A DNA stretch of 52,855 bases from an uncultured Candidatus Saccharibacteria bacterium (GCA_964544225.1 CAZIZK010000001.1:1-52855); one strand, 5' to 3'; positions 38,481 to 47,393 are shown, numbered from the stretch's first letter. Notes: generated by a model not told the origin, from the sequence alone. Translations and numbers: made by a program.

Positions 38481-39194
38481 TTATTGTGTAGGATTAATTA
38501 TGGTATTATTTGTATTTATATTTATGTCAGTGTTATTAATATTTGTAACTGGATTTGTAACCGGCTTTTTTACTCCTTCTTGTAAAATGAACTTCTCGTA
38601 TGAAAGAAGTGTTGGGTCAACAGAGAAAGATATTTCGAATTTAACATAACCCTTCTTGTCCTTTTCATCAGCCAGACCCAAGTTAGAGAATACTACGTCT
38701 TTGAAATATTTACCTTTGTCCGAGTTGAGTACTTGGGCTTGGAGTGCGATGGATCGATAGTCGCGTGCAGTACCTGTCATATTGATCAAGAAGCTTCGTC
38801 CGTCTGCAGAACTCGTCTGTTCGAACTTTGTAAACTGAACAGCTGGTAGAGTTAATTGATTCATAAGGTCAAAAAGTGGTGAGAATATGATATGACCAGA
38901 TATAACCTGTTTGGATACAGACATACGCTTGTCGAAAAGTTGTAGGTCTTCGATAGTGTCCTTCTCAAAGCTTGCTTGGGAGGATTGTAATGAGGTGTGT
39001 AGATTGTTTAGATTCTTTAAAAGAATATTTTTATAAACAAACAATCCACCATACAGTGCAACAACAATAACAACAGCGAATATGGATAAGAAATTCAAAA
39101 GCCCGATAGGTCTGGAAACAGCCACAGGTACATCGGTACTTGCAACTAATGGCTTCTTTGGTATGAAAGATGTTTGAAAAGAATTATTTTCCAT
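38481..39194 (-). CDS. pilN: PilN-like protein
   Basis: TM, coiled coil, LTLPAVQF, ...GTARDY and VKFEISF, downstream of pilM. Confidence 0.65.
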   Translation of the reverse strand: MENNSFQTSFIPKKPLVASTDVPVAVSRPIGLLNFLSIFAVVIVVALYGGLFVYKNILLKNLNNLHTSLQSSQASFEKDTIEDLQLFDKRMSVSKQVISGHIIFSPLFDLMNQLTLPAVQFTKFEQTSSADGRSFLINMTGTARDYRSIALQAQVLNSDKGKYFKDVVFSNLGLADEKDKKGYVKFEISFSVDPTLLSYEKFILQEGVKKPVTNPVTNINNTDININTNNTIINPTQ

Positions 39195-39203
39195 ATTTAT
39201 AAA

Positions 39204-40331
39204 TTATGACAATTGTCGCAATGCAAGACCCACAGCTACGGCAAATTCTGGACCGCTGGTTTCAAGTATAGGCGCTAGGAATGCTGGGGCCTCAGTCTTT
39301 CCAAACGGGTCTGCATACACCACCTCAGCACCGAACACTTTTGTCCCCTTCTCTAACAATCCGCGAAGCATAGCACCACCACCAGTAAATATAACTTTAC
39401 TTATAGCTTTATTATACTTCTTCTCATACGCAAGTACAATACTGTTTGTCTCGGAAAAGATGTAGTCGATAGATACAGCCACAATGTTTGCAACATTTGG
39501 GTTCTGATTCGTGTCGAGGCCTACATCACGCTTGATCTGTTCGGCTTGTTTGAATGGTGCATTCATAGAGGTAGCTATGGCTTTGGTTATGTCTTGTCCA
39601 CCACGAGGTATCACATGGAATGTACGAACAATTCCACGCTCGACAATAGATAATTTGGTCCTAGATGCACCAAAGTCGATCAACAATACCGGTGCCAGCT
39701 CGTGCCCAAATGATGAGCGCACCGATGAGAACACTTCCATCTCGAAAAAGTTCGAGTTTATATTCGCCGCTTTTAGTAAATCACGATATTTAGTCAGAGT
39801 ATCATTGTGTATAGCTACTGTTAAGACTTCGGTTTTTGCATCACGAATAGTCGATGCATTTTCATTGTCCTCGCCCACAGATTCGGCCTCGCGAGGGATC
39901 ATCCACCAGTCGAGAGTTACTTCAGTTATAGGTACAGGAATATATTTGCGAGCTTCGTTGGGGATAATAGCACCGAGATCTGCCTCAGATATAGCACCTG
40001 GGAGTGTAATCAGGAATATAAGGCTCGCAGATGATGGTATAGCCAGAGCACCTGTGGTAGTAGTAGTGTTGGACTCCTTCAATACATCAAATAATGCTGT
40101 GGTCAGAGCCTCGGCTGGCAAGTTCACAGAGGCACCAACATCAGTCTTGTCATATGGTCCCAGTGCGAGTGCGCCGTATGTCTCCAGTACCGCCTTGCCA
40201 CCCTTCTTCTTCAGTTGAACAACTTTTATTGAAGATGCTCCAATATCAATACCCAATACACTCTCGTCTTTCTTAGAGTTAAACATAGATGAAAAAGTGT
40301 CACCAAAAATTTGTTGGAAAATATTGCTCAT
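39204..40331 (-). CDS. pilM: type IV pilus assembly protein PilM
   Basis: LGIDIGASSIKVVQL, LIDFGAS, GG.DIT, TGGGA and AVGLALR. Start 40331. Confidence 0.93.
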   Translation of the reverse strand: MSNIFQQIFGDTFSSMFNSKKDESVLGIDIGASSIKVVQLKKKGGKAVLETYGALALGPYDKTDVGASVNLPAEALTTALFDVLKESNTTTTTGALAIPSSASLIFLITLPGAISEADLGAIIPNEARKYIPVPITEVTLDWWMIPREAESVGEDNENASTIRDAKTEVLTVAIHNDTLTKYRDLLKAANINSNFFEMEVFSSVRSSFGHELAPVLLIDFGASRTKLSIVERGIVRTFHVIPRGGQDITKAIATSMNAPFKQAEQIKRDVGLDTNQNPNVANIVAVSIDYIFSETNSIVLAYEKKYNKAISKVIFTGGGAMLRGLLEKGTKVFGAEVVYADPFGKTEAPAFLAPILETSGPEFAVAVGLALRQLS

Positions 40332-40376
40332 ATTATATACATAATTATAGCATATTTGTAGTAAAATAAATGTTAT

Positions 40377-41051
40377 ATGGGCAACTTTATACACAATATT
40401 TATAAAAATATATTGGCAATATTATTACCCATGTCTTGTATTGGGTGTAAAAAGAAGAATGAGGCTATTTGTGAACTTTGTTTATCTAAAATATGTACAG
40501 CCGAGCGTGAACCAGCCCGTCATATTAGTGCCGTATTTGATTATCGCGATCCATTAATAAAGAAGATGATCTGGGAGCTGAAATACAATAATAAAAAGGT
40601 GTATGCAGATATATTAGGGAAATATCTATACGAAGAAATGCTGGAAGAAATATCGACTCTTAATATGTTCTCGCGGGGTAGCCCTATCGTCGTTATCCCT
40701 GTACCTTTGTCTAAAAATCGTTTGAAGAAAAGGGGTTATAACCAAAGCCTTTTGATAGCACAAGCTTTGGTTGAAAATTCAGGCGGTAATATCATGAGTC
40801 TGAACAATAATTTAATAATAAAGGTAAAAGACACCCCACCCCAAGCCCGCATTATAAACAGGAATAAACGCCTTGCTAACATAAAGGGTGCTTTTGCTTT
40901 TACAAATCCTGATGCAAAAGATTTCGTAAAAGGTAAAACCATAATAATCCTCGATGATGTCACAACTACAGGTGGCACCATACACGAGATAATGATTATG
41001 TTAAAACACGCCGGCGCCAAGAAAGTCACCGGACTTGCCGTAGCACACTGA
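40377..41051 (+). CDS. comF: ComF family competence protein (Zn ribbon plus PRTase)
   Basis: CIGC...ICELC, PVPLSK.R..KRGYNQS, ILDDVTTTGGT. Ends in TGA. Confidence 0.92.
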   Translation: MGNFIHNIYKNILAILLPMSCIGCKKKNEAICELCLSKICTAEREPARHISAVFDYRDPLIKKMIWELKYNNKKVYADILGKYLYEEMLEEISTLNMFSRGSPIVVIPVPLSKNRLKKRGYNQSLLIAQALVENSGGNIMSLNNNLIIKVKDTPPQARIINRNKRLANIKGAFAFTNPDAKDFVKGKTIIILDDVTTTGGTIHEIMIMLKHAGAKKVTGLAVAH

Positions 41052-41062
41052 TAATAAAAAGA

Positions 41063-42256
41063 TTATTTATTCCACATGTCCCATACTGCGCCGGCAATAT
41101 TACGAGGCTTACCTTCGAGTGCGTAGTAGTGTAGGTCAATAAAAGGCAAAGTATTGCATTCGATAATACCCCATTTTTGTGTACTCTGATCTTTGGTCGG
41201 GTCAGGAATAATGCAGTCAAAGCCAGCAATAGCCAAGCCTACAACTCTACCTGCTTTTTCTAAAATCGGAATAAAGCTTGGGTGAAGCTCGTCTATCATC
41301 TCTTTTGTGCTTCCACCAAATAGCCTTCCGACACGGTGATATAGATTTATGGACACTTTGTCTGGCAAAATGTCATCAATCCCAAAACCTGCCCGAACAA
41401 GACAAGCATTCAACTCTTCACCCATTCTGACTGGTTCAATGCGATTATTCCTATTTTCATCCTTTTCTTTTATTAGAGTCCTAATTGTCTTTGTACCATC
41501 ACCCACAATAAAAGGCGCTTGCCCCCTATAAAAGCCTAAGAGGACTCCGTCGACAACAGTTGCCCTGCACACATAACCATGCAGATGTTCCTCTACGACA
41601 AGATGTGTAGATATTTGACTAGTTATAGCTACCCCCTCTTTGAAATCTTTTAGTGTATTTATATTAGTGATAGTGTGTCTGGATCTAGAACCTATTTCTG
41701 GTTTTACAATAACAGGTTTTTTAAATTTATTAAAAATACTTTCTAAATTATTAAATTTAGAACTTGATATACCTATACACTGTGGTACGGGAATATTGTG
41801 TTTAGATAGTTCTTTTTTTAAAAGAATTTTATTATCCCAATTATTACTAAATACTCTTTTAGGTGGTATAGGTATACTTTCAAAATATTCGAATTTACCA
41901 TTTATAATAGCCCTGTATTGGTCTATAGGCCTTTTGCCAACTATCACTTGCTCCATGTATATACCGCGCCGTTTAGCCTCCTCCCATATAACACGAGATC
42001 GGAAAGAACTTGCTTTATCTATATCATTTGAAAAATGAGATACTTTGAGGAATGACAAGAAACTAAAAAGATATTTTGGTATCAACTCAACCATTTGCTC
42101 CATCCAAGATGGAGCAAACTTCGAAAGCTTGCCGATTGTGTGATCGACAATATATAAAACGTGGTTCTCTATTTTATGGAGATTATGATTGATAGGTGCA
42201 TCACCACAATACGAGCATGCCCCCTGACGGACTTTTGGTTCAGAAGTATTTTGCAT
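41063..42256 (-). CDS. standalone ATP-grasp ligase (cyanophycin synthetase/GshF-type domain)
   Basis: IPVP, VIVKP, VEEHLHG, IVGDG..TI..LI, AGFDCII and IIECNTLP. Confidence 0.75.
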   Translation of the reverse strand: MQNTSEPKVRQGACSYCGDAPINHNLHKIENHVLYIVDHTIGKLSKFAPSWMEQMVELIPKYLFSFLSFLKVSHFSNDIDKASSFRSRVIWEEAKRRGIYMEQVIVGKRPIDQYRAIINGKFEYFESIPIPPKRVFSNNWDNKILLKKELSKHNIPVPQCIGISSSKFNNLESIFNKFKKPVIVKPEIGSRSRHTITNINTLKDFKEGVAITSQISTHLVVEEHLHGYVCRATVVDGVLLGFYRGQAPFIVGDGTKTIRTLIKEKDENRNNRIEPVRMGEELNACLVRAGFGIDDILPDKVSINLYHRVGRLFGGSTKEMIDELHPSFIPILEKAGRVVGLAIAGFDCIIPDPTKDQSTQKWGIIECNTLPFIDLHYYALEGKPRNIAGAVWDMWNK

Positions 42257-42270
42257 ATTTAATAAGACAC

Positions 42271-42301
42271 ACAAAAGAGGCAAGAAGCTTGCCTCTTTTG
42301 T
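42271..42301. terminator. intrinsic terminator
   Basis: ACAAAAGAGGCAAG-AAG-CTTGCCTCTTTTGT. Confidence 0.7.
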
Positions 42302-42453
42302 AGAAAAAATAAATTCTTAGTGTTCTCCTTTTATCATAAAAATAATATAACATTAAAGCCTTATTAAATCGACTATGTATAAGATGTATTATATCATGTA
42401 CATATTTAAATGCTAGTTTTTCCAAAATACATTAATATTACACAATAAAATGC

Positions 42454-43491
42454 CTAATCTTCGATTGTTTGTGCAGTACATATTGCATGTAATATTGTAC
42501 CTTTTGAGTCAAATTTGAACTTGCATATTGACGATACCTTCTTCTTTTGATCACCATTCATAATATTGTATTTCAATTTTATGAATTCTTGATCTTTGTA
42601 TGAATTAACAGTATCTTTCTTTATCCTCTCTATATCTTCGTGGCTTACAAATGCCATAAATTCTTCTAGTGAAAGTTTCGTATGCTCTGTATTCAATATC
42701 TTCATCATTGTCTTGTTTAGAACGACAATATTATTATTGGAATTCCATGTAAAGTGTCCCAGACCCGCCAACTCTTCAGACAATGTTAAAAAGTCTTTGC
42801 TTTGTTGCAAGTCCTGATTAACAGTCTCGAGATTACGTGCGTATTCAAACGAACGTAATATTATTGATATCAACAATAATACAGATATAAATACTAATAA
42901 AGACATGGCGACTACAACATATTGGGCAGTATGAACTCTATTAATAAAATCTCTCGCGGAAATATCAATACCGAGCATCGCCTCCACTTTACCACTCTCA
43001 CCAAATATCGGTGTATAAGCCGATATCCAGCTACCCCATGCGTCTGTATATGGACCACTAGTATAAGCTATACCATTCCTATGATTGTACAAATCCTCCT
43101 CGGTACTTTCGGTATAGGCTTGGCCTGGTGGTGAGTAATCTTTTGAACTTGGATCTTCCGAGTCAACAAGGAAGAACTCTTGGCCATCGTGCAGACCCAT
43201 CAGATATGAAAAGTGTATATCAAAATTCACATCATTCGCCCTCTTTAGAGTTTGCTTAAGTTTCTGGTATTGTGAATTGTCGATATCAGACTCATTGCCA
43301 GACAATACCTTTATATCATTTGGATCGATAGCTACTGAAATATTCTGGACTTGTTGCAATAGATTCTTCCGCTCAACATCAGACACCTTCTTGCCAACAT
43401 ATATAACGCTACTGATAGATACGATAACAACAATAACTGAGGCAAGTATGACTATAAACAAACCACTTTTATTATATTTTAAATCTTTCAT
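42454..43491 (-). CDS. membrane sensor: TM-Cache-like-TM-PAS-like, no output domain
   Basis: FLVDSE...YSPPGQ.Y...GPYTDAWGSWISAYTPI extracytoplasmic module and a C-terminal AGLGHFTWN PAS-like fold. Confidence 0.7.
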   Translation of the reverse strand: MKDLKYNKSGLFIVILASVIVVIVSISSVIYVGKKVSDVERKNLLQQVQNISVAIDPNDIKVLSGNESDIDNSQYQKLKQTLKRANDVNFDIHFSYLMGLHDGQEFFLVDSEDPSSKDYSPPGQAYTESTEEDLYNHRNGIAYTSGPYTDAWGSWISAYTPIFGESGKVEAMLGIDISARDFINRVHTAQYVVVAMSLLVFISVLLLISIILRSFEYARNLETVNQDLQQSKDFLTLSEELAGLGHFTWNSNNNIVVLNKTMMKILNTEHTKLSLEEFMAFVSHEDIERIKKDTVNSYKDQEFIKLKYNIMNGDQKKKVSSICKFKFDSKGTILHAICTAQTIED

Positions 43492-43495
43492 AATA

Positions 43496-44008
43496 TTATT
43501 GTATGTTATCTATAGTAATTTCAGATTCAGGAGCAGTGTGTACGTCAGGTACTAAGTGTGAAATATGTTTATAGAAAACAACGTATTCACCTAAAAATTT
43601 CTTGAAATGTGCATAATGTGGCACTTCACCAATTTCCTGCATGTGGGCTAGTGGCTTGCTCTCGGGAGTGTATTCATAATGTCCACGTAACTCCCCCTCT
43701 TTAAATACACGTATATGATACTGATTATCGAAGTCCACAAGCTTGCGCCATGATAGGACTTGACCTTCGTCTTTCCATGCTACGAAATGATTACCAAAAC
43801 CCCATTTGGTATGCAAATGATCCTCGAGTTGTTTTAGATTTTTATGTGGCGCAAGCCAGCCTAGGTGGTAATGTTGACGCCCTTTATCATGGCGAACTAT
43901 ATGCCATTTTAACAAATGAACTTGGAACCAAGGAAAAACATAATATATTTTATGCCAAAACCAGTTCTTGAATCTCTGCCAAGGTGTTAAATGTATTGTC
44001 TTCTTCAT
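43496..44008 (-). CDS. hypothetical His/Trp-rich protein
   Basis: 170-aa ORF with a TGTTATAAT promoter 6 nt upstream. No family recognised. Confidence 0.75.
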   Translation of the reverse strand: MKKTIHLTPWQRFKNWFWHKIYYVFPWFQVHLLKWHIVRHDKGRQHYHLGWLAPHKNLKQLEDHLHTKWGFGNHFVAWKDEGQVLSWRKLVDFDNQYHIRVFKEGELRGHYEYTPESKPLAHMQEIGEVPHYAHFKKFLGEYVVFYKHISHLVPDVHTAPESEITIDNIQ

Positions 44009-44024
44009 TCACACATTATAACAC

Positions 44025-44621
44025 CTAATTATCCACTTTGTCAGCGAATACTACCAGGCGGCTTGAGTGACTCTTATTTATACTATCCCATATACCATTG
44101 CAAGTGATCAGGTTCAAATGTGCCTTGCCATCAGATGTTTTAAATACACTTGTTGAATCTTGCCCTTCTTCATAAGTCTTCAGTTTTCGTACTATAAATA
44201 CAGTAGTTAAACCATTACTATTTTTTACATATATTTTGTCACCTATTTTTATTTTATATAAATTATCAAATACAGCCTTTATGCCGTCTTTCCACCCAGA
44301 GTGACCATCTATAACCGAACTACCTACCGTACCAGGCCTCGGACCCATATAAAACCATCCAACATTAATAGGGCCCTCTGGTGCATCCATGGCACCACCC
44401 TTTGTAATACCAACATGTTCAATGTTGGTATTTATACTAAGTGATGGGATAGAGATAGAAACAGGAAGACCGATATCAACATCTAAAGATGTATCGGATA
44501 ATATTGTAGATTTTTTAATATCAACATTTTTTGCACCATTTACATACTGCATAATAAATGCCGATGATATCATTACTAAGATAGATACTATAAAGAATTT
44601 TAATATTCTTCCTTTTTTCAT
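44025..44621 (-). CDS. class F sortase
   Basis: TM anchor, P..I.IPSL.I, VGW, PG..GS.VIDGH, LNLITC and RLVVFA (His/Cys/Arg triad). Confidence 0.88.
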   Translation of the reverse strand: MKKGRILKFFIVSILVMISSAFIMQYVNGAKNVDIKKSTILSDTSLDVDIGLPVSISIPSLSINTNIEHVGITKGGAMDAPEGPINVGWFYMGPRPGTVGSSVIDGHSGWKDGIKAVFDNLYKIKIGDKIYVKNSNGLTTVFIVRKLKTYEEGQDSTSVFKTSDGKAHLNLITCNGIWDSINKSHSSRLVVFADKVDN

Positions 44622-44622
44622 A

Positions 44623-44841
44623 TTATTTTATTATTTTCTTTACTTTGTTTACAACATGCTTTACTTTCTTTACATCTTTCTTTACTTCGTTCTTTGCATT
44701 CAAGATAAGACCCTTCATCTTATCCTGATGTTCCTTGCTATTTGGCCCTAGTAGGTAGTACGCCCCTGCCCCTACAGCAGCGATACCAGCACCGACAGCT
44801 ACAGCCTTGCCCACTGACATACCCTTTTTATGTTTAGTCAT
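44623..44841 (-). CDS. YtxH-like small protein
   Basis: Gly/Ala hydrophobic N-terminus ending YYLLGP, then a basic amphipathic helix. Confidence 0.55.
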   Translation of the reverse strand: MTKHKKGMSVGKAVAVGAGIAAVGAGAYYLLGPNSKEHQDKMKGLILNAKNEVKKDVKKVKHVVNKVKKIIK

Positions 44842-44870
44842 ATATTTTTATTCGTTTAAACTGATAAATC

Positions 44871-45134
44871 CTAGCTACTTTTTTTATTTTTTTTAGATCT
44901 TTTTTTATTTTTAAAAAATAATTTAAAAATAAAACTATCTTTTATATCCTCAAACGTTTCTTTGATTACCTCTTCTACTGAATCTATATTCTTCTCCAAT
45001 TTATTTATCAATTTTGCAAACAAATTTAAAATATGAAGAATGCGTATCAAGATAAGCACTGCCAATACACCCATGATGATGAATCCCACAGAAGAGATAA
45101 AGAAAAAAACTTGTGATTGTAATAAGGAATTCAT
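44871..45134 (-). CDS. DUF948 (YtxG/YoxC)-like small membrane protein
   Basis: TM followed by a coiled coil and a basic tail, paired with a YtxH-like gene. Confidence 0.5.
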   Translation of the reverse strand: MNSLLQSQVFFFISSVGFIIMGVLAVLILIRILHILNLFAKLINKLEKNIDSVEEVIKETFEDIKDSFIFKLFFKNKKRSKKNKKSS

Positions 45135-45158
45135 AAAATAAATTAATACAATTATCTA

Positions 45159-46133
45159 TTACTTTAGTTTACGATTCTTCCTTGCTACCAATACACTTGC
45201 AGATACAACTGCGATAGTACTTAGTACTAACACTATTATTGAAGTATTAGTTGATTCCTTTGGAGCAAAGCCTGTCGCAGGTAATGTTGGAACATAAGAA
45301 ATTGGATTACTAGTTACTACTGTAACAGTTGTAACTGTTTTTGGGAGATTTGATAAAGGCATACTACCTGTAACATTGCTACTGCCACCGCCTGAATTAC
45401 TTGGTTCTACGATGATAACTGGGTCTGTACAAACAGATGTGGTTATAGTATTGGTATCAGAAGTAATAGTACCTCCGTATGCTAATGCTCTTCCATTCCA
45501 TATTGTGTTTGCTCCTATGGTAATACCTGCATCATCTATCGCAGTTCCTATAAATGTTGTGTTCGCGGCAAGAGTAATAGCAGATGATGGTGTCCAGAAG
45601 ACATCACATTCTGATGCACCGTTGAGTGTGATTACAGAACCTACTGTTGATGTCAATGCGCCAGTTGGTCGGAATATATAAGTTCCACTTCCTTGTAGTG
45701 TTAATGGTCCCCCTATGTTCATAGCGCCATTACTACAATACACACCTGGTGTATAAACAGCGACTGTTCCATGAGTAATATCTGTAGATAGATCTATTGC
45801 CCCTGGCGCAAATGTGAATGTACAAGCTTGTCCATTCAAAGAAGTAAGTGCTGTGCCTTGTATAGTGCCTGCTTGGGTAAATATTCCAGTATTTACATAA
45901 GTGGTACCGCTGACTGTTGGGTTCACTGCAGGCGCAGTTATATAACCCAAGTCACCATTGATTGTTGTTGGTGTTGTATTTGTATAAGTACTAGCTAAAA
46001 CACTAAAACTATTAGCGAGTCCCAATACTGGAGTCGTGGCTGCATACGCAACATTGACACCATTTAATACAAAAACTAAACTAAGTGCTACTGCGAATGA
46101 TACGTATCTAGTTTTGTTTTTATAAGATTTCAT
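45159..46133 (-). CDS. DUF3494 ice-binding-like protein with signal peptide and LPATG sorting signal
   Basis: LG.A.SFSVLA, TINGDLG, YTPGVY, YIF, DVFW..SSA.TL...T.F.G...I...GRAL, then LPATG-TM-RKNRKLK. Confidence 0.85.
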   Translation of the reverse strand: MKSYKNKTRYVSFAVALSLVFVLNGVNVAYAATTPVLGLANSFSVLASTYTNTTPTTINGDLGYITAPAVNPTVSGTTYVNTGIFTQAGTIQGTALTSLNGQACTFTFAPGAIDLSTDITHGTVAVYTPGVYCSNGAMNIGGPLTLQGSGTYIFRPTGALTSTVGSVITLNGASECDVFWTPSSAITLAANTTFIGTAIDDAGITIGANTIWNGRALAYGGTITSDTNTITTSVCTDPVIIVEPSNSGGGSSNVTGSMPLSNLPKTVTTVTVVTSNPISYVPTLPATGFAPKESTNTSIIVLVLSTIAVVSASVLVARKNRKLK

Positions 46134-46416
46134 TTTGATTTATTTTTATTTAATTATTAGTTAATATTTTCGAATTATTACATATTATAAATATAAGATT
46201 CGGCACGTTGAAATACATCTTTGTGCAGATTTCTAAACTAGACTTGGCATATTTTAACCAAAGTCAGCTATATAAGTATTTATAATAAAGAGAGTTCTCT
46301 TTCGTGGCCGACCTATATCACACATCTTTGTAGAAGAAGTAATAAGCTAATATAAGTATATCACTTCCACATAAATATAGATAGCAGTCAATAGCATTAC
46401 ACCACATATGACTTTT

Positions 46417-46506
46417 TGGCGGAGCCGGACGGATTCGAACCGTCGAGGGCTTTTACACCCTGCCTCTTTAGCAAAGAGGTACGTTAGACCACTCTGACAC
46501 GGCTCC
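46417..46506 (-). tRNA. tRNA-Ser(GCT)
   Basis: GGAGCCG/CGGCTCC acceptor stem, CCTCT-TTGCTAA-AGAGG anticodon arm, long variable arm, G73, encoded CCA. Confidence 0.95.
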
Positions 46507-46512
46507 ATATTA

Positions 46513-46577
46513 AATTTAACTAAAGGACCAATAACACACGGATCCATGTTAATTTAACTAAAGGACCAATAACACAC
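46513..46577. repeat. tandem 27-bp exact direct repeat (period 38)
   Basis: AATTTAACTAAAGGACCAATAACACAC at 46513-46539 and 46551-46577. Confidence 0.95.
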
Positions 46578-46672
46578 ATCTCCATATTGGTTACAGATGC
46601 ATATTAGCATATAAAAAACATAAATAAAATAAGGCTTTTATAATTCTTAAAATATAGTATAATGCCTGTTAC

Positions 46673-46759
46673 GGAGGCGTGGATGAGTGGTTTAAATCAA
46701 CGGTTTACTAAACCGTCGAACCTTAATCGGTTCCGTGAGTTCGAATCTCACCGCCTCCG
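46673..46759 (+). tRNA. tRNA-Ser with ACT anticodon (A34)
   Basis: GGAGGCG/CGCCTCC acceptor stem, ACGGT-TTACTAA-ACCGT anticodon arm, long variable arm GAACC/GGTTC, GTGAG-TTCGAAT-CTCAC T-arm, G73. Confidence 0.9.
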
Positions 46760-46787
46760 CAGAGTCGTGATAGCACGAGATACATCG

Positions 46788-46818
46788 AAATCCAGTCTTA
46801 AAATTAGACTGGATTTTT
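46788..46818. terminator. terminator after tRNA-Ser(ACT)
   Basis: AAATCCAGTCT-7nt-AGACTGGATTTTT. Confidence 0.75.
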
Positions 46819-46832
46819 GATATAATATACTT

Positions 46833-47393
46833 ATGAAAAAAGAGATTGGTCTTAAAAAAGGCTTTGTTAAGGTAGAAAAATATAATCCCGAATGGAAAGA
46901 AGAGTTTAATAAAGAGAAAAAGAACTTGAAAAAGATTTTTGGTGATGTTGCTCTATCAATAGAACATGTAGGATCTACTTCGGTTGTAGGCTTGTCTGCA
47001 AAACCAATAATTGATATTGCTATTGGGGTTAACTCGCTAGAAGACATAGCCAAGGTTAAAGAGAAAATATTAAAGTTCTCTCATTATTCGATTAAGGAAA
47101 ATAATGCAGATGGCGAAATCCTTATGAGAAGAGGTGTGCCTATCAAGCAAGGTGAAGATAAGCCAAGTTTTATAACTCATTTTATTCATATTGTGGAAAT
47201 AGACGGCATAAAATATAAGGAAACATTAATGTACCGTGATTATTTAAGAAAAAATAAAGAAGTCCTAAAAGAATATAATGATCTAAAGCAAAAGTTAGCT
47301 ATTAAATACCAGAATGACAGAAAAGCTTATACTAAAGCAAAAGATGACTTCATTAAAAGTATTTTAAGTAAGTGTAATAGTTCGAATTTTTAG
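46833..47393 (+). CDS. GrpB (UPF0157) family protein
   Basis: YNPEW...F, IEHVGSTSV.GL.AKPIIDI, RDYLR...Y..LK and YT.AK..FI. Confidence 0.92.
   Translation: MKKEIGLKKGFVKVEKYNPEWKEEFNKEKKNLKKIFGDVALSIEHVGSTSVVGLSAKPIIDIAIGVNSLEDIAKVKEKILKFSHYSIKENNADGEILMRRGVPIKQGEDKPSFITHFIHIVEIDGIKYKETLMYRDYLRKNKEVLKEYNDLKQKLAIKYQNDRKAYTKAKDDFIKSILSKCNSSNF

What the first reader, a model, noticed from the sequence alone, without database searches (positions are those of the whole stretch)
44025..46133. Sortase F operon displaying an LPxTG-anchored ice-binding-like (DUF3494) protein on a CPR cell
Seen: four co-oriented genes with gaps of 24, 29 and 1 nt. They encode a signal peptide + DUF3494 beta-solenoid with Thr-rich rows + S/T/P stalk + LPATG-TM-basic tail, a DUF948-like protein, a YtxH-like protein and a class F sortase with intact H/C/R. 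Established: DUF3494 domains bind ice, sortases attach LPxTG proteins to peptidoglycan, and ytxG/ytxH are general-stress genes in Bacillus. Inference: a dedicated sortase-substrate pair giving an ultrasmall symbiont a covalently anchored ice adhesin or antifreeze coat, or a repurposed solenoid adhesin for host attachment.
Basis: partly seen in the sequence, partly recalled or inferred. Interest (0 to 1): 0.65.

Follow-up and report, generated by a model that had tools for sequence, protein, structure and literature searches.

The report
Wall-anchored ice-binding-like protein with own sortase
A tiny-genome (CPR/Patescibacteria) bacterium carries a mobile gene pair: a secreted "ice-binding-type" beta-solenoid protein ending in LPATG, and its own class-F-like sortase that most likely fixes it to the cell wall. 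The pairing is real and widespread but apparently undescribed in print, and nothing here shows the protein binds ice.

Summary
Four co-oriented minus-strand genes with gaps of 24, 29 and 1 nt encode:
- a signal-peptide / DUF3494 / disordered stalk / LPATG-TM-basic protein
- two small membrane proteins
- a sortase with invariant His107, Cys174 and Arg188

The sortase–substrate reading is strongly supported.
- This 770-kb genome has one sortase, one DUF3494 protein and one canonical LPxTG signal.
- In 66 of 80 related loci from nearly all CPR lineages, a sortase homolog lies directly downstream of the DUF3494 gene.
- These sortases form their own clade (SH-aLRT 100), apart from ordinary CPR sortases. 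They are class-F-like but score below NCBIfam's cut-off.
- Actinomycetota show the same pairing with bona fide class F sortases.
- Both phyla hold natural DUF3494–LPxTG–TM–TM–sortase fusion proteins.

The cassette is accessory. It occurs in 11% of sampled CPR genomes, its gene tree is scrambled across CPR lineages, and it is absent from the closest relative, where synteny ends exactly at the sortase stop.

The two small genes (DUF948-like, YtxH-like) are not a conserved part of the cassette.

Ice binding is neither shown nor excluded. Many carriers come from aquifers that I understand never freeze, so a general surface-adhesin or coat role is more likely. This is an ordinary kind of system in a new, apparently unpublished pairing. 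This scan has already met the pairing many times.

The parts
45159..46133 (-). [quoted passage not shown] It is the predicted sortase substrate.
   Evidence: ORF. Pfam PF11999 E 2.4e-21. PDB profile hits 5uyt 2.8e-28, 4nu2 and 3wp9. Model and Foldseek results.
46038..46133 (-). Sec-type signal peptide, residues 1-32 (MKSYKNKTRYVSFAVALSLVFVLNGVNVAYA|A).
   Evidence: By inspection of the translation. Predicted helix 7-25. No signal-peptide predictor was available.
45429..46037 (-). DUF3494 right-handed beta-solenoid with a flanking alpha-helix (residues 33-235). It is 20.7% Thr, has no Lys, and has Cys104, Cys133, Cys176 and Cys235, which are invariant or nearly so in the family.
   Evidence: pLDDT above 90. 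Foldseek TM up to 0.89 to solved DUF3494 ice-binding proteins. Invariant columns. Composition.
45285..45428 (-). Disordered S/T/V/P-rich stalk (residues 236-283). In many homologs it is replaced or extended by SpaA_2 (PF19403) or DUF7507 (PF24346) stalk domains.
   Evidence: pLDDT 44-47. Composition. Homolog domain lists.
45162..45284 (-). Cell-wall sorting signal: LPATG (45270-45284), polar spacer FAPKESTNTS, hydrophobic helix, basic tail ARKNRKLK.
   Evidence: The family-wide extended motif [LF]P[N/x][T/A]G[FILV][AP]P occurs in 178 of 211 members.
44871..45134 (-). 87-aa single-pass membrane protein with a coiled-coil tail, DUF948/YtxG-like. It is not a conserved member of the cassette.
   Evidence: Pfam DUF948 19.7 bits, below the cut-off of 37.2. 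Homologs lie beside the cassette only in G013/L084, L042 and L072.
44623..44841 (-). 72-aa glycine-zipper membrane protein, a short YtxH-like form. It is a lineage-resident small gene, not a conserved cassette member.
   Evidence: Direct Pfam YtxH E 0.7. Jackhmmer links it to a bona fide YtxH in L058. Present in 95 of 301 CPR genomes, usually far from DUF3494.
44025..44621 (-). 198-aa membrane-anchored, class-F-like sortase. Catalytic His107 is at 44301-44303, Cys174 at 44100-44102 and Arg188 at 44058-44060. Clade signature: Trp89, T-C-x-G176-x-Trp178.
   Evidence: Pfam Sortase E 2.9e-20. NCBIfam class F 107 bits, below the cut-off of 166. Residue conservation. Clade.
46184..46212 (-). Candidate promoter of the cluster: TTCAAC, 17 nt, TATAAT, about 50 nt upstream of the start codon. 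Weak evidence, found by eye.
   Evidence: Sequence. The consensus scan did not list it because the -35 hexamer matches only 3 of 6. No terminator-like site was found in 43300-46900.
44009..44024 (.). Right-hand boundary of the variable region. Synteny with the closest relative (G010, 79% nucleotide identity over window 38593-44008) ends here, just beyond the sortase stop codon.
   Evidence: G010 has neither DUF3494 nor a sortase.

Best explanation
This is a horizontally mobile, self-contained surface-display cassette. It consists of a DUF3494 beta-solenoid protein and a dedicated class-F-like sortase.

**Inferred mechanism, by analogy with characterised sortases.**
1. The precursor is exported through Sec.
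2. It is held in the membrane by its C-terminal helix and basic tail.
3. The neighbouring membrane-anchored sortase (His107/Cys174/Arg188) cleaves it between Thr and Gly of LPATG.
4. The sortase transfers it as a thioacyl intermediate to a lipid II or peptidoglycan amine.
5. The solenoid head then stands on a roughly 50-residue disordered stalk, covalently bound to the wall of this monoderm-like cell.

**Shown here.**
- The gene pair and its motifs.
- Its conservation and its separate sortase clade.
- Natural fusion proteins of substrate and enzyme.
- Its patchy, lineage-scrambled distribution.

**Inferred.**
- Cleavage, the wall acceptor, and what the head binds.

My reading of the head's role is a general adhesin or surface-coat function, with the ligand unknown (a host envelope or some other surface), rather than a specifically ice-directed one. 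The two small genes between substrate and sortase are a resident ytxG/ytxH-like pair caught inside the cassette. They are not part of the machine.
For: **Within this genome.**
- One PF11999 match and one PF04203 match in a 98%-complete, 770-kb genome.
- Only one canonical LPxTG+TM+basic tail among all ORFs.
- Peptidoglycan synthesis genes are present: 3 PBP transpeptidase matches and at least 4 Mur ligase genes.

**Conservation of the pair.**
- 178 of 211 family members carry [LF]PxTG[FILV][AP]P + TM + K/R.
- 66 of 80 loci from Gracili-, Peregrini-, Sacchari-, Berkel-, Wirth- and Doudnabacteria, Microgenomates and many Parcubacteria groups have a sortase homolog co-oriented directly downstream. 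Most of the other loci are cut by contig ends.

**A distinct sortase clade.**
- The window's sortase hits cassette-adjacent sortases mostly at E 1e-30 to 2e-64 (weakest 1e-4). It hits 20 other CPR sortases no better than 7e-11.
- One branch with SH-aLRT 100 separates the two sets.
- All four other cassette sortases tested score best as class F (97-133 bits). The three others tested score best as class C/D/E-like.

**Outside CPR.**
- Of 20 DUF3494 loci from Actinomycetota, 3 have a bona fide class F sortase (171-196 bits, cut-off 166) immediately downstream. Another 3 are single-ORF DUF3494+sortase fusions.
- CPR fusions also exist (L085, L016). L113 and L016 keep LPxTG and two membrane helices between the domains.

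**Mobility.**
- DUF3494 is in 34 of 301 sampled CPR genomes and in 5 of 41 close relatives.
- The DUF3494 tree does not follow CPR lineages: the Parcubacteria group needs 17 changes for 19 rows, against a shuffled mean of 17.9.
- The closest relative lacks the cassette, and synteny ends at the sortase stop.

**Literature.**
- Sortases are known to be common in CPR (PMC6744442).
- Pfam Ice_binding is already treated as a head domain of fibrillar adhesins with SpaA_2-type stalks (PMC8286594).
- The physiological role of class F sortases is called unknown (PMC13251363).
Against: - No experiment and no expression data.
- The sortase does not reach NCBIfam's class F cut-off, and Pfam's LPXTG anchor model is just below threshold.
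- The wall acceptor in CPR is unknown.
- Two other proteins of this genome end in LPDTV or FPNTF + TM + basic tail. They could also be substrates, so 'dedicated' may be too strong.
- Nothing measured here says what the solenoid binds. Its closest solved relatives are all real ice binders.
- The argument from habitat rests on my reading of isolate names in record titles, not on temperature metadata.
Confidence: 0.68

Rival explanations
1. Ice-binding coat. The wall-anchored DUF3494 head binds ice. It would protect the cell from recrystallisation damage or tether it to ice, as shown for secreted or anchored DUF3494 proteins of polar bacteria.
For: - The fold and sequence belong to the family whose solved members are all ice binders: 5uyt E 2.8e-28, and TM up to 0.89 to 7bwx.
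- The domain is 20.7% Thr and has the flat-solenoid architecture.
- The Cys pairs align with those of IBPv and with the FfIBP capping region.
- Some carriers seem to come from glacier-fed streams, boreal lakes and perhaps the Dry Valleys, judging by isolate names.
Against: - The NCBIfam ice-binding equivalog scores 28 bits against a cut-off of 400.
- By my reading of isolate names, many records of the family come from aquifers, a deep mine and soils. [quoted passage not shown]
- The sequence is unusually conserved (50-67% identity) across very distant CPR lineages, with many invariant residues.
- No activity can be computed.
Confidence: 0.17
2. Release rather than anchoring. The sortase acts mainly as a processing protease or transfers the head to water or a soluble acceptor. 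The solenoid would then be shed into the medium or onto a host cell instead of staying on the wall.
For: - Sortases can hydrolyse their acyl intermediate (general knowledge of the enzyme family).
- Some fusion proteins lack detectable membrane helices between head and sortase (L109, L085). That would allow a freely diffusing enzyme-substrate unit.
Against: - The sorting signal has the full retention architecture (TM + basic tail) in 84% of members.
- Peptidoglycan synthesis genes are present.
- Some cassette sortases carry PG_binding_1, which points to the wall as the place of action.
Confidence: 0.07
3. Fibre assembly. The sortase polymerises DUF3494 subunits into a pilus-like fibre, as class C sortases do with pilins.
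For: - One sortase with one substrate resembles a minimal pilus island.
- Many homologs carry SpaA-like stalk domains.
- Tandem DUF3494 paralogs are frequent.
Against: - The solenoid domain has no lysine at all, and the only Lys of the mature protein lies in the variable stalk. No invariant Lys exists in the family alignment, so there is no conserved pilin-motif nucleophile.
- The sortase is class-F-like, and its class C score is only 33 bits.
Confidence: 0.04
4. Housekeeping sortase with incidental adjacency. The enzyme serves several surface proteins of this genome, for example the LPDTV and FPNTF tails, and merely lies next to one of them.
For: - It is the only sortase in the genome.
Against: - The adjacency and the separate sortase clade hold across 66 of 80 loci, including genomes that also have ordinary sortases.
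- Fusion proteins tie this enzyme type to this substrate type.
- 27 of 41 close relatives have no sortase at all. If they also carry such tails, which I did not check, that would fit an earlier agent's judgement that those tails are sortase-independent.
Confidence: 0.04

Closest known systems
Dedicated sortase-substrate gene pairs of monoderm bacteria (S. aureus SrtB-IsdC; B. anthracis class D sortase with BasH/BasI)
   Same: One specialised sortase is encoded beside the one protein it anchors. The substrate has a signal peptide, a pentapeptide motif, a hydrophobic helix and a basic tail. The enzyme has the His-Cys-Arg triad.
   Different: The enzyme is class-F-like and the substrate is a DUF3494 solenoid. 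The pair lies in Patescibacteria, moves between lineages and also occurs as single-polypeptide fusions. I found no paper that describes this pairing.
Class F sortases of Actinomycetota (Cutibacterium/Propionibacterium acnes SrtF; Actinoplanes missouriensis SrtF1-4)
   Same: Class F is the best-scoring class model, aligned end to end. It has an LPXTG-type motif like the one P. acnes SrtF recognises (PMC8225981). Actinobacterial DUF3494 genes are followed by, or fused to, bona fide class F sortases. A. missouriensis SrtF1 and SrtF4 also have candidate substrates next door (PMC13251363).
   Different: The score is 107 bits against a cut-off of 166, so by the curated test this is not a member. The CPR clade has its own signature (Trp89, TCxGxW). 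P. acnes SrtF is a housekeeping enzyme, whereas this one looks substrate-specific.
DUF3494 / IBP-1 ice-binding proteins (IBPv 5UYT, FfIBP 4NU2, ColAFP 3WP9, AnpIBP 7BWX, Ca. Cryosericum IBP 9LHN)
   Same: Same Pfam family and same fold: a beta-solenoid braced by one long helix. The Cys residues align with those of IBPv and with the disulfide-stapled capping region of FfIBP.
   Different: Identity is about 18-28%. The protein is covalently wall-anchored through LPATG instead of being secreted, lipid-anchored or PEP-CTERM-tagged. The subfamily has an insert with invariant D118-x-x-H121-G. By their record titles, many carriers come from aquifer, mine, soil and lake samples. No activity is known.
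Fibrillar adhesins with an Ice_binding head and SpaA_2-type stalks (Monzon et al. 2021, PMC8286594)
   Same: The layout is head domain + stalk + LPXTG anchor. Many close homologs carry PF19403 (SpaA_2) or PF24346 stalk domains.
   Different: The window's protein has only a short disordered stalk and no folded stalk domain. That study did not link these proteins to a particular sortase class or to CPR.
SafA, the small membrane protein genetically linked to the actinobacterial housekeeping sortase (PMC9282373)
   Same: Small single-pass membrane proteins are encoded beside a sortase gene.
   Different: I found no homology, and the FPW motif is absent. The window's two small genes are DUF948-like and YtxH-like and are usually unlinked to the cassette. 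This is an analogy only.

Membership tests
DUF3494 / Ice_binding (Pfam PF11999) | Match to the family HMM above the gathering score | tested here: met
   76.8 bits against a cut-off of 28.7, E 2.4e-21, covering profile positions 5-208 of 208. 78.6 bits in the six-frame genome search.
DUF3494 / Ice_binding (Pfam PF11999) | Right-handed triangular beta-solenoid with one long alpha-helix alongside | tested here: met
   AF2 model with mean pLDDT 83.8 and core above 90, helix 83-100 plus stacked strands. Foldseek probability 1.00 to 31 DUF3494 structures, with a best TM of 0.89.
DUF3494 / Ice_binding (Pfam PF11999) | Ice-binding activity (thermal hysteresis, recrystallisation inhibition) | not testable with these tools
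   Needs purified protein.
NCBIfam NF045625 IBP_CFB (ice-binding protein equivalog) | Score above the curated cut-off | tested here: not met
   28.1 bits against a cut-off of 400.
LPXTG cell-wall sorting signal (sortase substrate) | LPXTG pentapeptide, then a hydrophobic helix, then a basic tail at the extreme C-terminus, with an N-terminal signal peptide | tested here: met
   LPATG at 284-288, hydrophobic 299-316, ARKNRKLK at the end, and an AYA|A-type leader. It is the only such tail in the genome.
LPXTG cell-wall sorting signal (sortase substrate) | Pfam Gram_pos_anchor (PF00746) above the gathering score | tested here: not met
   18.3 bits against a cut-off of 20, E 0.0022. This is a near miss. 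The roughly 10-residue polar spacer after the motif may contribute.
Sortase superfamily (Pfam PF04203) | HMM match above the cut-off and the catalytic His-Cys-Arg triad | tested here: met
   72.7 bits against a cut-off of 26.6. His107, Cys174 and Arg188 are invariant in 96 of 96 aligned sortases.
Class F sortase (NCBIfam NF033748) | Score above the curated subfamily cut-off | tested here: not met
   107 bits against a cut-off of 166. Six other cassette-linked CPR sortases score 97-133 bits. Actinobacterial sortases beside DUF3494 score 171-196 bits and pass.
Class F sortase (NCBIfam NF033748) | Class F is the best-matching class, aligned over the whole model | tested here: met
   Class F at E 6.9e-31 over positions 10-154 of 155. 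The next class model (class C) scores 33 bits.
Class F sortase (NCBIfam NF033748) | Cleavage of LPXTG and transpeptidation | not testable with these tools
   Needs an enzyme assay.
Class C (pilus-polymerising) sortase system | Pilin-motif lysine in the substrate, and a class C sortase | tested here: not met
   No Lys in the solenoid domain, one in the variable stalk, and no invariant Lys in 45 homologs. Class C score 32.9 bits against a cut-off of 160.
YtxH (Pfam PF12732), for the 72-aa protein | HMM match above the gathering score | tested here: not met
   10.8 bits against a cut-off of 37.5, E 0.7. Jackhmmer links it to L058's protein, which scores 70.6 bits. It is therefore YtxH-like by transitive homology only.
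DUF948 / YtxG (Pfam PF06103), for the 87-aa protein | HMM match above the gathering score | tested here: not met
   19.7 bits against a cut-off of 37.2, E 1e-3. Two of its three homologs score similarly weakly (13.6-15.9 bits), and L072's is not listed.

The most novel reading that the evidence does not exclude
DUF3494 'ice-binding-like' proteins would be the cognate, co-inherited substrates of the class F sortase lineage in monoderm-type bacteria (Actinomycetota and Patescibacteria). The pair moves as a unit and repeatedly fuses into a self-sorting polyprotein (head, LPxTG, two membrane helices, sortase).

That would give class F sortases, whose physiological role is still called unknown, a natural substrate. 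It would also imply that a large share of the DUF3494 family consists of wall-anchored surface proteins with a job other than ice binding, in habitats that never freeze. In ultra-small episymbionts that job could be attachment to a host envelope.
Probability: 0.5. Interest if true: 0.55.

Novelty: new member of a known kind. Interest (0 to 1): 0.4.

Why it matters
- **Sortase biology.** The physiological role and natural substrates of class F sortases are still open (PMC13251363). A conserved gene pair, with fusions, names a concrete substrate and an extended motif ([LF]PxTG[FILV][AP]P) that can be tested with peptides.
- **Ice-binding proteins.** Many DUF3494 proteins sit covalently on cell walls of organisms sampled from aquifers and soils. 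This cautions against reading 'ice-binding family protein' annotations as function.
- **CPR biology.** The cassette adds one more mobile, strain-variable surface module to organisms that live by surface contact.
- **This window specifically.** It is a clean minimal case: one sortase and one substrate in a 770-kb genome from an order where most genomes have no sortase.

The same pairing has already been met many times in this scan, so this window adds confirmation rather than discovery.

Tried and rejected
1. **Four-gene operon as a functional unit: rejected.**
   - Homologs of the 87-aa and 72-aa genes lie near the cassette in only a few loci and in different orders (window: ibp-p87-p72-srt; G013 and L072: ibp-srt-p87-p72; Berkelbacteria: p72-ibp-srt).
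   - YtxH-like genes occur in 95 of 301 CPR genomes. They are adjacent to DUF3494 in only 2 of the roughly 17 that have both.
   - Relatives without the cassette keep them.
2. **The downstream 170-aa gene (43496-44008) as part of the cassette: rejected.**
   - It has no homolog in the 80 loci.
   - It is conserved in G010, which lacks the cassette.
   - A strong promoter-like site lies just upstream of it.
3. **Pilus polymerisation: rejected**, for lack of any conserved lysine.
4. **A published description of DUF3494 with sortase: not found.** There were 0 papers with both 'DUF3494' and 'sortase'. The 6 papers with 'ice-binding' and 'sortase' do not describe the pairing; the two most relevant, which I read, do not. 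The CPR pilus preprint PMC13278184 concerns unrelated Ig-like pilins.
5. **Habitat and expression: not obtained.** The sample accessions SRR13208906 and JGI 3300048672 were not in the paper library.
6. **Ice-binding-face analysis: not possible**, because model coordinates are not exposed to the script box.
7. **The consensus promoter/terminator scan gave nothing above shuffled expectation**.
8. **A first attempt to centre a phylum search on a locus id failed**. It worked through a genome handle.
Full report
**1. What is in the sequence**

- 46133..45159 (324 aa)
- 45134..44871 (87 aa)
- 44841..44623 (72 aa)
- 44621..44025 (198 aa)

The intergenic gaps are 24, 29 and 1 nt.

The 324-aa protein:
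- It matches Pfam Ice_binding/DUF3494 at E 2.4e-21, 76.8 bits against a cut-off of 28.7.
- A profile of 45 close homologs hits the solved ice-binding proteins 5UYT (2.8e-28), 4NU2, 3WP9 and 20 or so others.
- An AlphaFold2 model built on that alignment has pLDDT above 90 over about residues 31-240.
- In Foldseek the model matches 31 DUF3494 chains (TM up to 0.89, rmsd 1.9 to 7BWX) and nothing else of note.
- The N-terminus is a Sec-type leader.
- The domain is 20.7% Thr, has no Lys and has four Cys (104, 133, 176, 235).
- Residues 236-283 are an S/T/V/P-rich stretch that the model leaves disordered.
- The end reads LPATG-FAPKESTNTS-(18 hydrophobic residues)-ARKNRKLK.

The 198-aa protein:
- It matches Pfam Sortase at E 2.9e-20.
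- It has an N-terminal membrane helix.
- It carries His107, Cys174 and Arg188, which are invariant in all 96 sortases I aligned.

The two small proteins are less securely named. DUF948 is a sub-threshold match for the 87-aa protein. Pfam YtxH does not match the 72-aa protein directly (E 0.7). An iterative search does connect it to a bona fide YtxH protein of a Berkelbacteria genome.

**2. One sortase, one canonical substrate, and a wall to attach it to**

- The window lies in a 770-kb, four-contig, 98%-complete genome.
- That genome's phylum sample includes the published Berkelbacteria genome CP011213. The organism is therefore a Patescibacteria (CPR) bacterium. Earlier notes of this scan call it Paceibacteria/Nomurabacteria-like (not tested by me).
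- The whole genome holds one DUF3494 match and one sortase match, which are these two genes.
- A scan of every stop-to-stop ORF for a pentapeptide + hydrophobic helix + basic tail finds only this protein as a canonical LPxTG substrate.
- A looser scan adds two proteins ending in LPDTV or FPNTF directly followed by a helix. An earlier agent judged these to be retained membrane anchors (e1-1553844).
- Peptidoglycan synthesis is encoded: three PBP transpeptidase matches and a cluster of Mur ligases.

**3. The pair is conserved across the radiation**

- The protein has more than 800 relatives in the big protein collection. Sources name them 'ice-binding family protein' of Gracilibacteria, Peregrinibacteria, Paceibacterota, Wirthbacteria and others.
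- Among 211 family members, 178 end in the sorting signal. The extended consensus is [LF]-P-[N>S,D,K]-[T>A]-G-[FILV]-[AP]-P.
- I fetched 80 loci from species-representative genomes. In 66 of them a homolog of the window's sortase lies co-oriented immediately downstream of the DUF3494 gene. Most of the rest are cut by contig ends.
- Within the window's own genus and order the cassette is patchy: DUF3494 in 5 of 41 genomes and any sortase in 14 of 41. Where both exist they lie within about 1.5 kb.
- Phylum-wide, 34 of 301 sampled genomes have DUF3494 and 271 of 301 have some sortase.

**4. The linked sortase is its own lineage**

- The window's sortase hits cassette-adjacent sortases of very distant CPR groups mostly at E 1e-30 to 2e-64 (weakest 1e-4).
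- It hits 20 sortases taken from other places in CPR genomes no better than 7e-11.
- In a maximum-likelihood tree, those 20 lie on one side of a single branch (SH-aLRT 100). All 77 DUF3494-linked sortases lie on the other side.
- Of those run through NCBIfam, the six other linked CPR sortases score best as class F (97-133 bits; the window's scores 107). All are below the curated cut-off of 166.
- The three ordinary CPR sortases tested look class C/D/E-like.
- The linked clade has diagnostic residues: Trp89 and T-C-x-Gly176-x-Trp178. The others have His89 and T-C-x-Pro176.

**5. The same pairing outside CPR, and fusions**

- In a sample of 251 Actinomycetota genomes, 28 have DUF3494.
- Of 20 loci fetched, three have a sortase immediately downstream that passes the class F cut-off (171-196 bits).
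- Another three are single ORFs with an N-terminal DUF3494 domain and a C-terminal sortase domain.
- CPR genomes hold such fusions too (L085, 775 aa; L016, 861 aa with an added PG_binding_1 domain).
- In L113 and L016, the LPxTG motif and two membrane helices sit between the two domains. This is the substrate's sorting signal joined to the sortase's own anchor.
- Fusion of two proteins into one is classical evidence that they work together. Here it fits an enzyme and its substrate.

**6. Accessory and mobile**

- A tree of the DUF3494 domains does not follow CPR lineages. The Parcubacteria-type group needs 17 changes for 19 rows (shuffled mean 17.9). Saccharibacteria need 15 changes for 19 rows. 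The actinobacterial sample is nearly one clade.
- The closest relative in the collection (G010) is 79% identical in DNA over window 38593-44008.
- G010 has neither gene. Its synteny with the window stops exactly at the start of the 170-aa gene, 16 nt beyond the sortase stop codon. Beyond that point G010 carries unrelated genes.
- On the other side the cassette abuts two tRNA-Ser genes and a low-GC island ending in a recombinase.
- The nearest homolog (77% identity) lies on a short metagenome contig as two tandem DUF3494 genes followed by an 85-aa ORF in the position the 87-aa gene holds in the window; its homology was not tested.

**7. The two small genes**

- Homologs of the 87-aa and 72-aa genes lie near the cassette in a same-genus genome and in a Liptonbacteria genome, in both cases after the sortase.
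- In a Berkelbacteria genome the YtxH-like gene lies before the substrate. In a Doudnabacteria genome only the 87-aa type is present, and it is divergent in orientation.
- A profile of the 72-aa family finds it in 95 of 301 CPR genomes, usually once.
- Of the roughly 17 sampled genomes that have both it and DUF3494, only the window's genome and the Berkelbacteria genome have them adjacent.
- Close relatives without any DUF3494 (G323, G035) keep a strong homolog.
- I therefore read the pair as a resident ytxG/ytxH-like pair beside which the cassette sits in this genus. It is not part of the machine. A role like that of SafA, the small membrane protein that protects an actinobacterial sortase (PMC9282373), is only an analogy.

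**8. Does it bind ice?**

This cannot be decided here.

For ice binding:
- Family and fold membership.
- A Thr-rich solenoid.
- Cys positions shared with IBPv and with the FfIBP capping region.

Against ice binding as the general function:
- The curated ice-binding equivalog scores 28 of the 400 bits required.
- Conservation is high (50-67% identity across very distant CPR groups), with many invariant residues. These include a subfamily-specific D118-x-x-H121-G loop.
- Record titles point, by my own knowledge of these isolate names, to the Rifle and Crystal Geyser aquifers, New Zealand groundwater, a deep mine, soils and lakes, along with a few cold sites.
[quoted passage not shown] It also treats Pfam Ice_binding as a head domain of fibrillar adhesins with SpaA_2-type stalks (PMC8286594), which many close homologs carry.

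**9. Comparison with what is known, and novelty**

- Sortases are known to be frequent in CPR (PMC6744442).
- Dedicated sortase-substrate pairs are a familiar kind of system.
- What I could not find in the paper library is any description of DUF3494 proteins as substrates of a sortase. No paper holds both 'DUF3494' and 'sortase'. The six papers holding 'ice-binding' and 'sortase' do not describe it; the two most relevant, which I read, do not.
- A 2026 paper still calls the physiological role of class F sortases unknown. It does note possible substrates next to two of them (PMC13251363).
- Earlier notes of this scan report the same pairing, its spread to Actinomycetota and the fusions in many other genomes. 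These are AI notes and not independent evidence. My own searches reproduce their main claims. They also mean that this window is one more instance rather than a first sighting.

**10. Verdict**

- The 'dedicated sortase-substrate pair' is well supported by comparative evidence.
- 'Class F' should read 'class-F-like'.
- The four-gene operon is really a two-gene cassette with two resident small genes inside it.
- The ice function is unproven and, in my judgement, the less likely reading.
- This is a new member of a known kind of system and is moderately interesting. Its main value is that it gives class F-type sortases a testable natural substrate.

Noticed in passing
L109:3161-5020(-), L113:3291-5249(-), L127:3275-5167(-) (Actinomycetota); L085:2050-4377(-), L016:7531-10113(+) (CPR): These are single ORFs that join an N-terminal DUF3494 domain to a C-terminal sortase domain. 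L113 and L016 keep LPxTG and two membrane helices in between. L016 adds a PG_binding_1 domain and a second and third LPxxG motif.
   Followed up: partly
L116, L117, L125 (Actinomycetota loci): Actinobacterial DUF3494 proteins are followed by bona fide class F sortases. They end in a membrane helix and basic tail but have no recognisable LPxTG (for example ...PIDTGGGSTSG..., ...PSGGVPAGGGPAAP...). These sortases may read a different signal.
   Followed up: no
L114, L118, L122 (Actinomycetota loci): Some actinobacterial DUF3494 proteins end in an Arg/Ala-rich basic repeat followed by a bare ...GGFTG or ...SFTG at the very C-terminus, with no sortase nearby.
   Followed up: no
window 46673-46760 (+) and 46417-46506 (-): Two tRNA-Ser genes lie just upstream of the cassette. 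ARAGORN reads one as anticodon ACT, which is unusual. An earlier agent of this scan has already followed this up.
   Followed up: no
window 44015-44044 (-): This is the best promoter-like site of the region (CTGACA, 18 nt, TG-TATAAT, 11 of 12). It lies inside the last codons of the sortase gene, just upstream of the 170-aa gene. That gene probably has its own promoter.
   Followed up: no
window 43496-44008 (-): A 170-aa His/Trp-rich protein with no Pfam or NCBIfam match. It is 87% identical in the closest relative G010 and absent from the 80 cassette loci.
   Followed up: partly
L130 (JGI 3300048672 contig, 2608 bp): The nearest homolog (77% identity) lies in tandem with a second DUF3494-LPSTG gene, whose sorting tail is almost identical to the window's. 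An 85-aa ORF follows. This suggests duplication and loss within the cassette.
   Followed up: no
versus 47/48 (genome samples): Sortases are present in 90% of a phylum-wide CPR sample but in only 14 of 41 genomes of the window's genus and order. The two samples are drawn differently and overlap.
   Followed up: no
(Pfam scores of DUF3494 matches): CPR DUF3494 domains fall into two score classes against PF11999: about 150-260 bits, and about 70-100 bits (the window's subfamily). Both are linked to the same sortase clade.
   Followed up: partly
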